From a virus: a stretch of 64,000 bases of DNA. Positions 135 to 1,863 of the stretch are shown here, one piece after another. The notes beneath the pieces are model-generated. The model saw nothing but the letters and a program-made list of their open reading frames with translations, did not search any database and was not told where the DNA came from. The stretch spans positions 1 through 64,000 of IMG/VR virus record IMGVR_UViG_3300020472_001862. The stretch is one strand, 5' to 3'. Position 1 is the stretch's first letter. The number at the start of each line of letters is the position of its first letter. A program made the translations under genes and the position numbers.

Positions 135-148
135 TTAGCCCCTGAGCG
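135..148 (+). repeat. left copy of direct repeat TTAGCCCCTG(A/T)GCG, overlapping a GC-rich hairpin (140-167)
   Basis: TTAGCCCCTGAGCG at 135-148 vs TTAGCCCCTGTGCG at 1535-1548; stem ccct-g-agcgac/gtcgct-aggg. Confidence 0.75.
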
Positions 149-169
149 ACGATAATTGTCGCTAGGGTC

Positions 170-178
170 TGTTATAAT
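170..178 (+). promoter_or_regulatory. extended -10 promoter TGnTATAAT
   Basis: TGTTATAAT upstream of the AGGAG SD and the ATG at 202. Confidence 0.55.
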
Positions 179-201
179 ATACACATTAAATAGGAGAATA
201 T

Positions 202-579
202 ATGTTAGTTAATAAATGTGAAGGTAGAGGTGGAGTTAAACAAATAGAGATGACAACAGGAGAAGTGTTGCAGGAAATGATAGACAATTGGTGGCACGAC
301 GAGGACACATTAACAGGTGGTGTTGAAATGTTAGACGAAACTGTATGTGGAATAAACATACACGAACAATTACAATATGAGTTTAACATAGCAGATATAC
401 AGGGTAAGTACTTTATAGGACATGTTGATGATTGTTTTGCACAAACTACAAAAGAAGAATGGCATGAGGAACTTAAACAAAGAGACTATGACACATGTTG
501 GGAGATAACAGACGAAGGTATTATGAGATACATGTACGCAGACGGGTATATACTAATTTTTGTATATAACAAAAAGTAA
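202..579 (+). CDS. hypothetical acidic early protein
   Basis: 125-aa ORF with AGGAG SD; no Pro or Ser. Confidence 0.75.
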   Translation: MLVNKCEGRGGVKQIEMTTGEVLQEMIDNWWHDEDTLTGGVEMLDETVCGINIHEQLQYEFNIADIQGKYFIGHVDDCFAQTTKEEWHEELKQRDYDTCWEITDEGIMRYMYADGYILIFVYNKK

Positions 580-613
580 TAACAGGCATGGCGACTATAT
601 AACAAATGATTAT

Positions 614-642
614 TTTACATTTAGTTATGTATTTAGTATAAT
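614..642 (+). promoter_or_regulatory. sigma70-type early promoter TTTACA-17-TATAAT
   Basis: correct spacing, followed by a GTGTATATTAATTAAATAAAAAAGGA leader resembling those after 25983 and 63757. Confidence 0.7.
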
Positions 643-675
643 GTGTATATTAATTAAATAAAAAAGGAAACAAAT

Positions 676-870
676 ATGTTAAATGAAATTGTAATTTACA
701 TGAAAGATGAACAAATTGAGATTAACGATACAAACTACAGATTGGAATTGTTAAACTTTATAGCAGAACATACACTTAACGACTTAGACAATACAAAGTA
801 TATTGACGAGGCAGTTAATATATTAAGATACGATACACATAGTGGTTTATATAATAGTGAGGAAGTGTAA
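676..870 (+). CDS. hypothetical early protein
   Basis: 64-aa ORF with AAGGA SD downstream of the promoter. Confidence 0.7.
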   Translation: MLNEIVIYMKDEQIEINDTNYRLELLNFIAEHTLNDLDNTKYIDEAVNILRYDTHSGLYNSEEV

Positions 871-1046
871 TGAAAATAGTAAGTGGTGGCGAAAGTATTA
901 ACGAGAATAACGAAAAGGTGGCGAGAGTTACTTTAGAGAACGGAAGTGTATATACATTAACTGAATATATGTATGTAGACTGGGATGAGTTTACACACAC
1001 AACACACGAAGAACTAATAGAGTGTGGGTGGGAAAAAGAATTATAA
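870..1046 (+). CDS. hypothetical early protein (58 aa, MKIVSGGESINENNEKVARVTLENG...CGWEKEL); not in the ORF track
   Basis: TAATG stop/start overlap with the previous gene, GAGG SD, open to TAA at 1046. Confidence 0.7.
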   Translation: MKIVSGGESINENNEKVARVTLENGSVYTLTEYMYVDWDEFTHTTHEELIECGWEKEL

Positions 1047-1084
1047 CTTGTTGATTACTAAAGGAATTTAGTTAGTAAAAAAGG

Positions 1085-1113
1085 TTGCATTTTGGTTTAG
1101 TGTATAGTAATAT
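1085..1113 (+). promoter_or_regulatory. probable early promoter TTGCAT-17-TAATAT
   Basis: AAAAAAGG-TTGCAT-TTTGGTTT resembles the AAAAAGG-TTGACA-AATGGTYC element. Confidence 0.5.
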
Positions 1114-1147
1114 ACACAGTAACAGTAAACAAAAAGGGTTATACAAT

Positions 1148-1504
1148 ATGTTAAATTTACAAACTTTACAAAACAAACTAGCAGACGGATTTGAAACAAT
1201 GTATGTTTACATTGAGGAAAGCACGGATTTTGATACTATTACAGTTAACATACAAAAAATGTTACACATAGCAGAAGAAGAAGGAAAAGAGTATGAGGTA
1301 ATGGATTATTGTTTAAGTTTTGACGGCACACATTTTACACACGGTAGCACAGATAATATAGTATTTGGCGACGAAGAAGAGTGTATTAAGTTTTGCACAA
1401 ACTATTTGTGGGAGTTAAGAGATGAAGAAGACGAAACAATTAGTTTAAGTGAAGCACGAAAAGAAGTAGTTAATAGTAGCAATGGCAGTTTTAAATATAG
1501 TTAA
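1148..1504 (+). CDS. hypothetical acidic early protein (start revised to ATG 1148)
   Basis: AAGGG SD before ATG 1148; the upstream TTG start in the track lies inside the promoter. Confidence 0.7.
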   Translation: MLNLQTLQNKLADGFETMYVYIEESTDFDTITVNIQKMLHIAEEEGKEYEVMDYCLSFDGTHFTHGSTDNIVFGDEEECIKFCTNYLWELRDEEDETISLSEARKEVVNSSNGSFKYS

Positions 1505-1534
1505 CTAAAAACACAAAAAGGGGTTGACATTTAG

Positions 1535-1548
1535 TTAGCCCCTGTGCG
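1535..1548 (+). repeat. right copy of direct repeat TTAGCCCCTG(A/T)GCG, flanked by hairpins (1520-1542 and 1558-1578)
   Basis: 13/14 identity with 135-148; stems GGGGTTGAC/GTTAGCCCC and AGGCTAGC/GCTGGCCT. Confidence 0.75.
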
Positions 1549-1863
1549 TGGTGAGAGAGGCTAGCTAGACGCTGGCCTTCGTGCTATCTAAATAATCAAA
1601 ATAATGCTTGACATCTGAGGTGAGCTATGGAATTCTGAGGCAGGGTAGGCCACTAGAGAGGTATATAGCCCTATCTTAATTTCTTACCAGATTTCTTGGG
1701 CAAAAAAACACGGGCAAAAAAGTAGTCAAAAATAGTTTATTTTGAAATCTGCGAAAAAACGATACCATATAAAGATTGGCCTGATTGGTCCTTTATACAC
1801 TTGTATTATTGTTATTAGTACCGTATAATAGACCATAGTATATAGAGTAATAGGCTCTACATG

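What the first reader, a model, noticed from the sequence alone, without database searches (positions are those of the whole stretch)
135..1580. The YC-free tract is bracketed by a 14-bp direct repeat plus GC-rich hairpins exactly 1400 bp apart
Seen: TTAGCCCCTGAGCG at 135-148 and TTAGCCCCTGTGCG at 1535-1548. Each copy sits with a stable hairpin (140-167; 1520-1542 and 1558-1578) in an otherwise AT-rich region, and the compositional boundaries fall at these elements. Inference: they could be start/stop (nick or priming) sites that define a single-stranded segment, as in strand-displacement or rolling-circle origins. They could also be att-like cores of an excisable 1.4 kb early-gene cassette, or genome-end signals. 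Together with the previous finding this suggests a defined cis-acting system rather than drift.
Basis: partly seen in the sequence, partly recalled or inferred. Interest (0 to 1): 0.85.

Follow-up and report, generated by a model that had tools for sequence, protein, structure and literature searches.

The report
Promoter and terminator bracket YC-free genes
The two repeat-plus-hairpin elements mark the start (an early promoter with a built-in palindrome) and the end (RNA stem-loops) of a small block of early genes in a marine T4-like phage whose message strand has no TC or CC; the 14-base repeat is a leftover of two related promoter/terminator modules, not a nicking, priming or integration site.

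Summary
TTAGCCCCTG occurs only at 135 and 1535 in the 170-kb genome. All three hairpins are stable. The + strand has no TC or CC from 169 to 1538, against a next-longest gap of 187 nt.

The interpretation mostly fails. The left element is a divergent promoter region. It carries an invariant palindrome, AGCGAC-N7-GTCGCT, fixed 10 nt upstream of an extended -10 box. The right element is a pair of stem-loops that fold best as + strand RNA. In two relatives the first stem-loop is followed by a U-run, making a canonical terminator.

About 25 metagenomic relatives keep a YC-free tract of 0.47-1.55 kb with varying genes. Almost all keep the right hairpin. Only one other keeps the left repeat copy.

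The window's first ~205 nt belong to a different haplotype at a contig end, so the "exact 1400 bp" spacing has no meaning. The two boundaries are diverged copies of one composite module of about 65 nt, like the PeSL cassettes of T4-type phages. The genome has no integrase, resolvase or Rep_trans match.

The YC ban therefore tracks a transcription unit. Its cause is unresolved: Rho evasion, an unknown YC-reading activity, or the phage's own guanine modification. This scan has noted similar TC/CC-free early genes in other phages.

The parts
1..72 (-). 5' part of a minus-strand gene (begins MRLYFNLDT...) cut off by the contig start. It is transcribed divergently from the cassette.
   Evidence: Read from the sequence. 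The full-length homologue is the 92-aa minus-strand ORF at L101 1484-1762. Window 1-205 is 97.6% identical to L080 456-660.
98..126 (-). Sigma-70-type promoter for the divergent minus-strand gene: TTGACA, 17 nt, CATAAT. Its -35 box is the TTGTCAA seen just upstream of the left repeat copy.
   Evidence: Promoter scan, 11 of 12 matches. The block is conserved in relatives' left boundaries.
135..148 (+). Left copy of the 14-bp repeat. It is the C-rich 5' flank of the promoter palindrome and is specific to one haplotype.
   Evidence: Present only in the window and L080. Other alleles have a different 7-9 nt at this spot.
136..171 (.). Left hairpin or palindrome. The core is AGCGAC-N7-GTCGCT at 145-163. 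In this allele a CCCT/AGGG outer helix extends it.
   Evidence: Fold of -18.2 kcal/mol. The core arms are invariant in 12 distinct variants while the loop and spacer vary. The core is always 10 nt from TATAAT. Three copies exist in the genome, all at this locus.
170..178 (+). Extended -10 box (TGnTATAAT) of promoter A. The YC-free tract starts here. The transcription start is predicted at about 185.
   Evidence: Sequence. Same box and same phasing in all relatives. The start site is inferred, not mapped.
169..1538 (+). YC-free tract: no TC or CC on the + strand, including intergenic spacers and internal promoters.
   Evidence: Conserved in all relatives recovered through the ORF202 family or the right-hand hairpin. 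The four ORFs are discrete outliers among 221 ORFs: 0 YC against a next-lowest density of 2.65% and a median of 5.7%.
202..579 (+). ORF202, 125 aa, acidic and proline-free. It is a conserved family of unknown function.
   Evidence: 24 homologues at 46-96% identity. No proline in the 20 aligned sequences. AF2 model has pLDDT 83 with a tandem beta-beta-alpha-beta repeat and no convincing structural match. No Pfam or PHROG hit.
614..642 (+). Internal sigma-70-type promoter (TTTACA, 17 nt, TATAAT) ahead of the ORF at 676.
   Evidence: Promoter scan, 11 of 12 matches. Function inferred.
676..1046 (+). Two small ORFs of unknown function, both YC-free: 676-870 (64 aa) and 870-1046 (58 aa).
   Evidence: Equivalent genes were called in L074, L075, L077 and L080.
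1148..1504 (+). Last cassette ORF, 118 aa, acidic. It is the only gene retained in the minimal cassette of relative L101.
1519..1543 (+). Right hairpin 1: a 10-bp stem with a G-rich, YC-free 5' arm and a C-rich 3' arm. The tract ends where the 3' arm begins. The loop contains TTGACA.
   Evidence: Fold of -18.2 kcal/mol on the + strand against -12.5 on the - strand. 100% of cells paired in 10 distinct sequences, with invariant G-U pairs. In L101 the C-to-T changes keep pairing through G-U. In L078 and L091 the homologous hairpin is followed by TTTTTTGTG.
1535..1548 (+). Right copy of the 14-bp repeat: the 3' arm of hairpin 1 plus 5 nt.
   Evidence: The exact 10-mer occurs in nine of the related loci, and CCCCTG more widely.
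1555..1580 (+). Right hairpin 2: an 8-bp core plus 2 outer pairs, with a conserved U-G pair.
   Evidence: 92.6% of cells paired across 10 distinct sequences. Only one-sided changes were counted.
1530..1595 (+). Stretch homologous to the left promoter-A region, in direct orientation. It looks like a degraded copy of the promoter module: hairpin 2 stands in the palindrome's place and the -10 box is broken.
   Evidence: Local alignments against 500 shuffles: genome-end allele p < 0.002, L074 allele p = 0.024, window allele p < 0.002 but only 19 nt long.

Best explanation
The bracket is the start and stop of an early transcription block in the variable (hyperplastic) region of a T4-like marine phage.

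Left side. This is a compact divergent promoter region. A sigma-70 promoter fires leftward into a minus-strand gene. Promoter A fires rightward. Promoter A consists of an invariant 19-bp palindrome (AGCGAC-N7-GTCGCT) centred near -31, fixed 10 nt upstream of an extended -10 box, then a Shine-Dalgarno sequence and an ATG. Because the arms never vary while the loop does, the palindrome is most likely the binding site of a dimeric regulator. That step is inferred.

Right side. Two stem-loops fold best as + strand RNA. Hairpin 1 is the homologue of a canonical intrinsic terminator seen in some relatives. It probably ends or stabilises the transcript (inferred).

The tract. The YC-free tract runs from the -10 box to the descending arm of hairpin 1. 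The G-rich arm comes first, so the only YCs sit in the base-paired 3' arm. The TC/CC ban is therefore a property of the transcription unit: the RNA, the displaced non-template strand, or a template strand free of G-purine steps.

The repeat. The 14-bp direct repeat is the best-preserved piece of a longer, diverged direct repeat of about 65 nt. Both boundaries descend from one composite stem-loop/promoter module of the PeSL kind. The left copy kept the C-run only in one haplotype. It is not a functional pair of sites.

Why the unit bans YC is not settled. My odds: evasion of Rho, whose primary sites bind 5'-YC, about 30%; an undescribed YC-specific nuclease or modifier of RNA or ssDNA, about 35%; avoidance of the phage's own guanine modification on the template strand, about 15-20%; other, the rest.
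For: The repeat is unique in the genome. The hairpins are stable.

The same palindrome plus extended -10 box occurs twice more at the genome end. Each copy is followed by YC-free DNA. Twelve distinct promoter variants have invariant arms and identical phasing to TATAAT. The divergent promoter scores 11 of 12.

All relatives recovered through the ORF202 family or the right-hand hairpin keep a YC-free tract, with one to six genes of varying identity. The right hairpin is present at 21 of the 22 right boundaries seen. It has invariant G-U pairs, and its one-sided changes keep pairing only on the + strand. L078 and L091 have the hairpin, then a U-run, then the next palindrome promoter.

The left and right boundaries align over about 65 nt.

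Selection against YC is continuing. 17.8% of possible point changes would create a YC. Yet the window and L082 differ at 217 aligned positions and both tracts are YC-free. The four ORFs are discrete outliers among 221 ORFs.

The PeSL definition comes from PMC4122927. YC recognition by Rho comes from PMC12360218. In T4, adding Rho restricts transcription to immediate-early RNA (PMC2988021).
Against: No transcript ends have been mapped. The start site, termination at hairpin 1 and early timing are inferred from sequence and from analogy with T4.

In this window hairpin 1 has no U-run, so it may not terminate.

The hairpins show conservation and wobble-compatible changes but no double compensatory change.

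In PeSLs the stem-loop lies upstream of a -35 box. Here the palindrome replaces the -35 box.

In L091 the gene behind a palindrome promoter does contain YC (27 in about 500 nt). The promoter type alone therefore does not dictate the ban.

The left-right homology rests on short alignments (p 0.002-0.024).

Against Rho as the cause: the all-or-none pattern, proline-free proteins and the lack of any depletion in other genes fit an agent for which each single site matters better than a factor that needs several YCs.
Confidence: 0.75

Rival explanations
1. The flanking homologous modules are active recombination substrates. As with PeSLs, homologous recombination between the left and right modules excises the cassette as a mini-circle or swaps its content, and the 14-mer marks the crossover zone.
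For: The direct-orientation homology of the two boundaries. Gene content differs between relatives at module boundaries: cassettes hold one to six genes, the 38-aa unit is present or absent, and L101 has a minimal cassette. L078 and L091 have a full palindrome promoter immediately after the right hairpin, so the cassette there is flanked by two promoter modules. PeSL mini-circles have been demonstrated in RB49/phi1 (PMC2839356, cited through PMC4122927).
Against: No empty-site allele and no circular junction was found among about 30 related contigs. The observed rearrangements break at internal promoters or ribosome-binding regions, not at the 14-mer. The left and right modules share only a 10-bp exact match. 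The left copy is missing in most haplotypes.
Confidence: 0.2
2. The repeat and hairpins are nick or priming sites of a rolling-circle or strand-displacement system that makes the tract single-stranded, or att cores of a site-specific recombinase.
For: Only the geometry supports this: a direct repeat next to hairpins at both ends of a strand-asymmetric tract.
Against: The 99%-complete genome has no match to the Phage_integrase, Resolvase or Rep_trans families. The left copy is not conserved. The repeat plays opposite structural roles at the two ends: it is a 5' arm on the left and a 3' arm on the right. Both elements have straightforward readings as promoter and RNA hairpin.
Confidence: 0.03
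3. The left copy is coincidence or an assembly artefact. The window's first ~205 nt are a bubble branch from another strain joined at a shared ribosome-binding word, and the match to the right hairpin arm has no history or function.
For: Window 1-205 matches L080 (97.6%). The rest of the locus matches L100 (99.4%) when the genome end is joined to position 234. No other contig joins promoter A directly to ORF202. The chance level for a 13/14 match is 0.4%, and 2.6% for a 10-mer.
Against: The same left allele with the 10-mer exists independently in L080, so the sequence is real. Other left alleles also align with the right boundary over a longer stretch, which argues for common descent rather than chance.
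Confidence: 0.15
4. The promoter-to-hairpin unit is an R-loop replication origin. A purine-rich transcript stays hybridised, as at T4 ori(uvsY) and ori(34), and displaces the + strand between the two elements. The displaced strand must lack YC to survive a YC-specific ssDNA nuclease or deaminase.
For: The tract is 62% purine on the RNA-like strand, with GC skew around +0.2 to +0.47. The boundaries coincide with transcription signals. That T4-type origins work through R-loops is established knowledge and was not tested here.
Against: The tract is filled with conserved, ribosome-site-preceded ORFs under protein-level selection. R-loop stability does not require zero YC. No origin-associated feature was detected.
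Confidence: 0.05

Closest known systems
PeSL (promoter-early stem-loop) composite promoter/terminator cassettes of T4-type phages (Arbiol et al. 2010, PMC2839356; Comeau et al. 2014, PMC4122927)
   Same: The host is a T4-like phage. The elements lie in a variable region of small ORFs of unknown function. A stem-loop sits immediately upstream of a strong sigma-70-type early promoter, followed by a Shine-Dalgarno sequence and an ATG. Several related copies flank small ORFs in direct orientation. Gene content differs between close relatives at these modules. The right hairpin has the G-run/loop/C-run form reported for RB49/phi1. The right element resembles the 'degraded' PeSLs described there, with stem-loop and -35 box kept and the -10 box lost.
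   Different: Here the palindrome occupies the -35 position at a fixed 10 nt from an extended -10 box, and its arms are sequence-invariant, like a protein site. The palindrome type occurs only at this one locus (3 copies). No mini-circle or recombination junction was observed. The enclosed DNA is completely free of TC and CC on the message strand, which the PeSL papers read here do not describe.
Intrinsic (Rho-independent) terminators and 3' stabilising stem-loops
   Same: Right hairpin 1 is a stable GC-rich stem at the end of the last ORF. In L078 and L091 the homologous hairpin is followed by a U-run.
   Different: In this window and most relatives no U-run follows. A second hairpin follows instead. 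Termination has not been shown.
Rho utilisation sites and the Rho primary binding cleft, which binds 5'-YC (PMC12360218; T4 immediate-early versus delayed-early control, PMC2988021)
   Same: The banned dinucleotide is exactly the one the Rho primary sites recognise. The tract is C-poor and G-rich, the opposite of a rut site. In T4, Rho limits transcription to immediate-early RNA.
   Different: Rho needs several YCs, so a strict zero, proline-free proteins and the absence of any depletion in the other 217 ORFs are more than simple Rho avoidance predicts. The host and its Rho are unknown.
Motif-specific 7-deazaguanine DNA modification by phage DpdA (CAjan: GA and GGC, PMC7544227; iggy: GA, PMC10484667)
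   Same: The ban equals 'no G followed by a purine' on the template strand, close to the known DpdA motifs. This genome carries FolE-, QueD- and QueE-like genes and a glycosyltransferase-like gene.
   Different: No transglycosylase was identified. The cluster also has a phosphoribosyltransferase-like gene, which hints at a nucleotide-level route. 7-deazaguanines pair normally, so why a template would need to avoid them is unclear.
T4 middle promoters (MotA box centred at -30 replacing the -35 element; PMC2988021)
   Same: A conserved sequence element centred near -30/-31 at fixed distance from a good -10 box, with no -35 consensus.
   Different: The element here is a palindrome unrelated to the MotA box. 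No MotA or AsiA search was done. It may be an operator for repression rather than activation.

Membership tests
PeSL composite promoter/terminator cassette | Located in a hyperplastic region of a T4-type phage, next to small variable ORFs | tested here: met
   T4-type baseplate genes in the window. The cassette holds one to six small ORFs that differ among relatives.
PeSL composite promoter/terminator cassette | Stem-loop just upstream of a sigma-70-like early promoter (-35 and -10), followed by SD and start codon | tested here: inconclusive
   Stem-loop, extended -10 box, SD and ATG are present with fixed phasing. However, the stem-loop replaces the -35 box rather than preceding it.
PeSL composite promoter/terminator cassette | Repeated copies in direct orientation flanking ORFs | tested here: met
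   Three palindrome promoters at the locus. The right boundary is homologous to the left module. L078 and L091 have a full module after the right hairpin.
PeSL composite promoter/terminator cassette | Stem-loop acts as a transcription terminator | not testable with these tools
   Only sequence is available. A U-run follows the hairpin in L078 and L091 but not in the window. The terminator scan found none in 1-2300.
PeSL composite promoter/terminator cassette | Recombination between copies: indels at modules, mini-circles | tested here: inconclusive
   Indels and replacements lie at promoter and ribosome-binding modules. No circular junction or empty site was seen. Read-level data are not available.
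Site-specific recombination cassette (att or integron-like) | Cognate tyrosine or serine recombinase encoded by the element or genome | tested here: not met
   No PF00589 or PF00239 match in the 99%-complete genome; positive controls rang.
Site-specific recombination cassette (att or integron-like) | Conserved core repeat at both cassette ends in relatives | tested here: not met
   The left copy is present in 2 of 16 left boundaries.
Rolling-circle or strand-displacement origin | Initiator (Rep) protein and a conserved nick site in a hairpin | tested here: not met
   No PF02486 match; only this one Rep family was searched. The repeat is a 5' arm on the left and a 3' arm on the right. The left copy is not conserved.
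Intrinsic terminator | GC-rich stem-loop followed by a U-run on the transcribed strand | tested here: inconclusive
   The stem is met. The U-run is absent in the window and present in the homologous element of L078 and L091.
Rho-resistant transcript (lacking rut) | Absence of YC dinucleotides and C-poor, G-rich RNA | tested here: met
   0 YC in 1,370 nt, with C 10% and G 21%. Whether Rho is the selective agent is not testable here.

The most novel reading that the evidence does not exclude
The promoter-to-hairpin unit is a cis-immune 'bootstrap' message. Every TC and CC is banned because an as yet undescribed activity in the infected cell cuts or modifies RNA, or the displaced DNA strand, at each single YC. 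This activity would not be Rho. The few small acidic proteins encoded on this untouchable message would be its inhibitors. The PeSL-like modules would let phages swap such genes in and out. Similar TC/CC-free early genes noted by this scan in unrelated giant phages would make it a general, unrecognised layer of phage-host conflict.
Probability: 0.3. Interest if true: 0.9.

Novelty: new variant of a known kind. Interest (0 to 1): 0.5.

Why it matters
Taken alone, the bracket is ordinary phage regulatory DNA: a promoter module and RNA stem-loops of the PeSL kind.

Its value lies in what it says about the extraordinary tract between the two elements. The TC/CC ban begins at the -10 box and ends at the descending arm of the terminal hairpin, and relatives with other genes keep this pattern. 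That ties the ban to transcription: the RNA, the displaced strand or the template. It rules out injection order, genome ends, replication nicks and integration.

This narrows the search for the selective agent to three testable candidates: Rho, a YC-specific nuclease or modifier, or the phage's own G modification. It also defines a compact, portable unit (promoter, YC-free ORFs, hairpin) that can be moved into a laboratory system and recoded to test them.

Tried and rejected
1. Scanning IMG/VR for the palindrome pattern gave 65 loci. None had a long YC-free tract, so these are chance hits.

2. Two longer right-boundary patterns found nothing in IMG/VR.

3. Relatives found through the downstream 373-aa gene (71% identity) have no YC-free tract within 10 kb. 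Synteny there is not conserved.

4. blastn and tblastn against 50,697 phage records found nothing for the region, ORF202 or the ORF at 1148. No cultured relative was found.

5. Rfam gave only noise in 1-2600. No tRNA was found.

6. I considered an outer helix next to the palindrome kept by compensatory change: CCCT/AGGG in the window against AGGC/GCCT in the majority allele. L098 combines the window's right patch with a non-complementary left patch, and L082 has no outer helix, so I dropped the idea.

7. The conserved non-coding stretch 1600-1720 does not fold better than shuffles (z +0.4). I make no claim of a structured RNA there.

8. The TTGACA in the loop of hairpin 1 has no usable -10 box 16-18 nt downstream, so I rejected it as a promoter.

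9. The ORF202 structure (pLDDT 83) gave no Foldseek match at E <= 0.001 in PDB or BFVD and a best VIA Z of 4.9. No function can be inferred.

10. Pfam TGT found no match in the genome. The 422-aa protein in the deazaguanine-like cluster has no PDB, Pfam or NCBIfam match, so a DpdA-type enzyme is not established.

11. A purely mutational origin (C-to-T deamination at YC) is unlikely. TT is not raised and CT is depleted 3-fold; the lost C is replaced mainly by A and G.

12. No complex prediction was run.
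Full report
**What the genome is.** The window is the first 64 kb of a single 170,236-bp virus contig of 35.7% GC. CheckV rates it 99% complete and IMG/VR classes it as linear. It carries T4-type baseplate hub and wedge genes.

**The observation.**
- The two 14-mers at 135-148 and 1535-1548 match at 13 of 14 positions.
- TTAGCCCCTG occurs nowhere else on either strand of the genome.
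- Among 1,500 random pairs of 100-nt genome windows at the same spacing, 0.4% reach 13/14 and 2.6% share a 10-mer. The repeat is probably not chance, but it is not overwhelming.
- The three hairpins are stable. 136-171 and 1519-1543 fold at -18.2 kcal/mol each, with no shuffle folding as well. About 1555-1580 folds at -17.3.
- The + strand has no TC or CC between 168 and 1539. The next-longest such gap in 170 kb is 187 nt.
- The four ORFs inside have 0 YC. Among the other 217 ORFs of the genome the lowest density is 2.65% and the median is 5.7%. The property is all-or-none.

**The left element is a divergent promoter region.**
- On the minus strand, TTGACA, 17 nt and CATAAT (126-98) precede a gene that starts at about 72 and runs off the contig.
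- On the plus strand, the palindrome AGCGAC-N7-GTCGCT (145-163) lies 10 nt upstream of TATAAT. TG sits in the extended -10 position (170-178), followed by an SD and the ATG of ORF202.
- The same module occurs twice more, at 169,954 and 170,142. Each copy is followed by YC-free DNA.
- Across relatives I found 12 distinct variants. The arms are invariant, four of seven loop positions vary, the 9-nt spacer varies freely, and the distance to TATAAT is always the same.
- Invariant arms without covariation, a centre near -31 and no -35 consensus point to a protein-binding site that is part of the promoter. It could serve an activator or a repressor; this is inferred.
- In this intergenic position the hairpin is upstream of both transcription starts, so it is not expected in RNA.

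**The right element is RNA-like.**
- Hairpin 1 has a G-rich 5' arm that contains no YC and a C-rich 3' arm. The tract ends at the first base of that 3' arm.
- It contains G-U pairs in all 10 distinct sequences. It is weaker on the minus strand (-12.5 against -18.2). In L101 two C-to-T changes in the 3' arm keep pairing through G-U.
- Hairpin 2 is 92.6% paired across relatives and has a conserved U-G pair.
- Neither hairpin shows a double compensatory change, so the support is conservation plus strand-specific wobble, not covariation.
- In L078 and L091 the homologous hairpin 1 is a perfect 8-bp stem followed by TTTTTTGTG, a canonical intrinsic terminator. About 27 nt further on comes another palindrome promoter.

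**Relatives.**
- ORF202 has 24 homologues at 46-96% identity. Their contigs (L074-L091) and contigs found through the right-hairpin sequence (L094-L102) all carry a YC-free tract of 0.47 to more than 1.5 kb.
- Gene content varies. L101 has a single gene. Other loci combine a 38-aa ORF, the ORF202 family and assorted ORFs of 58-181 aa.
- The ban is actively maintained. 17.8% of all possible point changes in the tract would create a YC. The window and L082 differ at 217 aligned positions, yet both are YC-free. The ORF202 family has no proline in 20 sequences.
- Rare exceptions exist. L076 and L078 have one intergenic YC. L091 has two near a gene's 3' end.
- The right hairpin is present at 21 of the 22 right boundaries seen. 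L090 has a different hairpin that is itself YC-free.
- The left TTAGCCCCTG is present at only 2 of 16 left boundaries, the window and L080. Other alleles have 7-9 different bases at that spot, and L101 and L102 lack the palindrome altogether.

**The contig end.**
- The last 32 nt of the genome repeat window 202-233. The last 365 nt carry a second allele of promoter A without the C-run, then a YC-free 38-aa ORF, then promoter B.
- L100, an independent contig, is 99.4% identical over 2,390 nt to the genome end joined to window position 234. L074 spans the same junction at 93-95%. The molecule is therefore circular or circularly permuted here, and these are not genome ends.
- Window 1-205 is 97.6% identical to L080 456-660, where it precedes the 38-aa ORF. 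No other contig joins promoter A directly to ORF202.
- The window's start is thus either a second haplotype caught at the contig end or a rare recombinant. The 1,400-bp spacing carries no meaning; in L080 it is 1,545 bp.

**Origin of the repeat.** Local alignment shows that the left promoter region and the right boundary are homologous in direct orientation over about 65 nt. The genome-end allele gives p < 0.002 and the L074 allele p = 0.024 against shuffles. In the alignment hairpin 2 stands where the palindrome is, and a broken TAT..AAAT stands where the -10 box is. The different left alleles look like different small deletions of the right-hand sequence. The 14-mer is therefore the best-preserved fragment of two diverged copies of one composite module.

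**Comparison with what is known.**
- The architecture matches the PeSLs of T4-type phages. These are stem-loops directly upstream of strong early promoters with SD and ATG. They are repeated in hyperplastic regions, sit next to indels and replacements, include degraded copies that keep the stem-loop and -35 box but lose the -10 box, and have been shown to excise mini-circles (PMC4122927; PMC2839356).
- The differences: the palindrome replaces the -35 box and looks like a protein site, the type is confined to one locus, and no excision product was seen.
- The genome has no match to the tyrosine recombinase, serine recombinase or Rep_trans families. The att and rolling-circle readings therefore lack their enzymes.

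**Why the unit is YC-free.** The boundaries show that the ban follows transcription. Three readings remain.
- (a) Rho. Its primary sites bind 5'-YC (PMC12360218), and in T4 Rho confines transcription to immediate-early RNA (PMC2988021). Against this, Rho needs several YCs, so the strict zero and the lack of any depletion elsewhere are more than expected.
- (b) An undescribed activity that acts at each YC of RNA or displaced ssDNA. This fits the all-or-none pattern, but no such activity is known to me.
- (c) The template strand avoids G-purine steps because the phage modifies G in such motifs. DpdA motifs GA and GGC are known (PMC7544227, PMC10484667), and the genome has FolE-, QueD- and QueE-like genes. 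However, no transglycosylase was identified.
- A purely mutational (deamination) origin does not fit the composition.
- The cassette proteins gave no functional clue.
- Earlier notes of this scan report TC/CC-free early genes in several unrelated giant phages. I did not check them. They are leads, not evidence.

**Verdict.** The boundaries are a promoter module and RNA stem-loops of the PeSL kind. The repeat is a relic of their common origin and is not conserved on the left. Nick, priming, att and genome-end readings are not supported. The finding's main worth is that it pins the remarkable YC ban to a transcription unit.

Noticed in passing
window 1-233 and genome 169,872-170,236 (L093 3870-4237): The contig's two ends are alternative alleles of the same locus. 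The last 32 nt repeat window 202-233. Independent contig L100 matches the circularised join at 99.4%. Window 1-205 matches another haplotype (L080) at 97.6%.
   Followed up: yes
genome 170,016-170,132 (L093 4017-4133): A 38-aa YC-free ORF (MYYLALLIQ...) lies between promoter A' and promoter B. It is present in most relatives but often not called as a gene. The window's start lacks it.
   Followed up: partly
window 1545-1790: About 250 nt of non-coding DNA after the cassette has long blocks conserved in diverged relatives (L076, L082, L086). There is no Rfam hit and no fold better than shuffles, so its role is unknown. It could be a regulatory region of the next gene at 1895.
   Followed up: partly
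L101 1860-2328: A minimal cassette. The same flanks hold only one YC-free gene, the homologue of window 1148-1504, with no palindrome promoter. The 3' arm of hairpin 1 is mutated but still pairs through G-U.
   Followed up: yes
L091 2455-3027: A palindrome-type promoter directly after the terminator drives a gene that does contain TC/CC (27 in about 500 nt). The promoter type and the YC ban are therefore separable.
   Followed up: partly
window 202-579 (model mbc6ec748b428): ORF202 is predicted with confidence (pLDDT 83) as two tandem copies of a small beta-beta-alpha-beta unit. It has no convincing structural relative, and the whole family lacks proline.
   Followed up: yes
genome 94,427-100,956 (L092 928-7456): An operon carries QueE-like, xanthine-PRTase-like, GTP cyclohydrolase I, Rv2179c-like exonuclease, a 422-aa unknown (phrog_10773), DenV-like, glycosyltransferase-like and QueD-like genes. 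This is a 7-deazaguanine-type pathway with no recognisable transglycosylase.
   Followed up: partly
window 5222-7897 (-) and 7876-9126 (-): Two large secreted-looking proteins. The first has repeated Cys motifs and a very acidic region that causes the GA/GG-poor patch at 6209-6357. The second has long Asn/Thr repeats.
   Followed up: no
window 640-680, 1120-1147; promoter leaders in L074-L100: The leaders after the -10 boxes share a recurring AT-rich motif (...ATGTTAAATAAAAAAGGA...) up to the SD. It looks like a conserved 5' UTR module of these early units.
   Followed up: no
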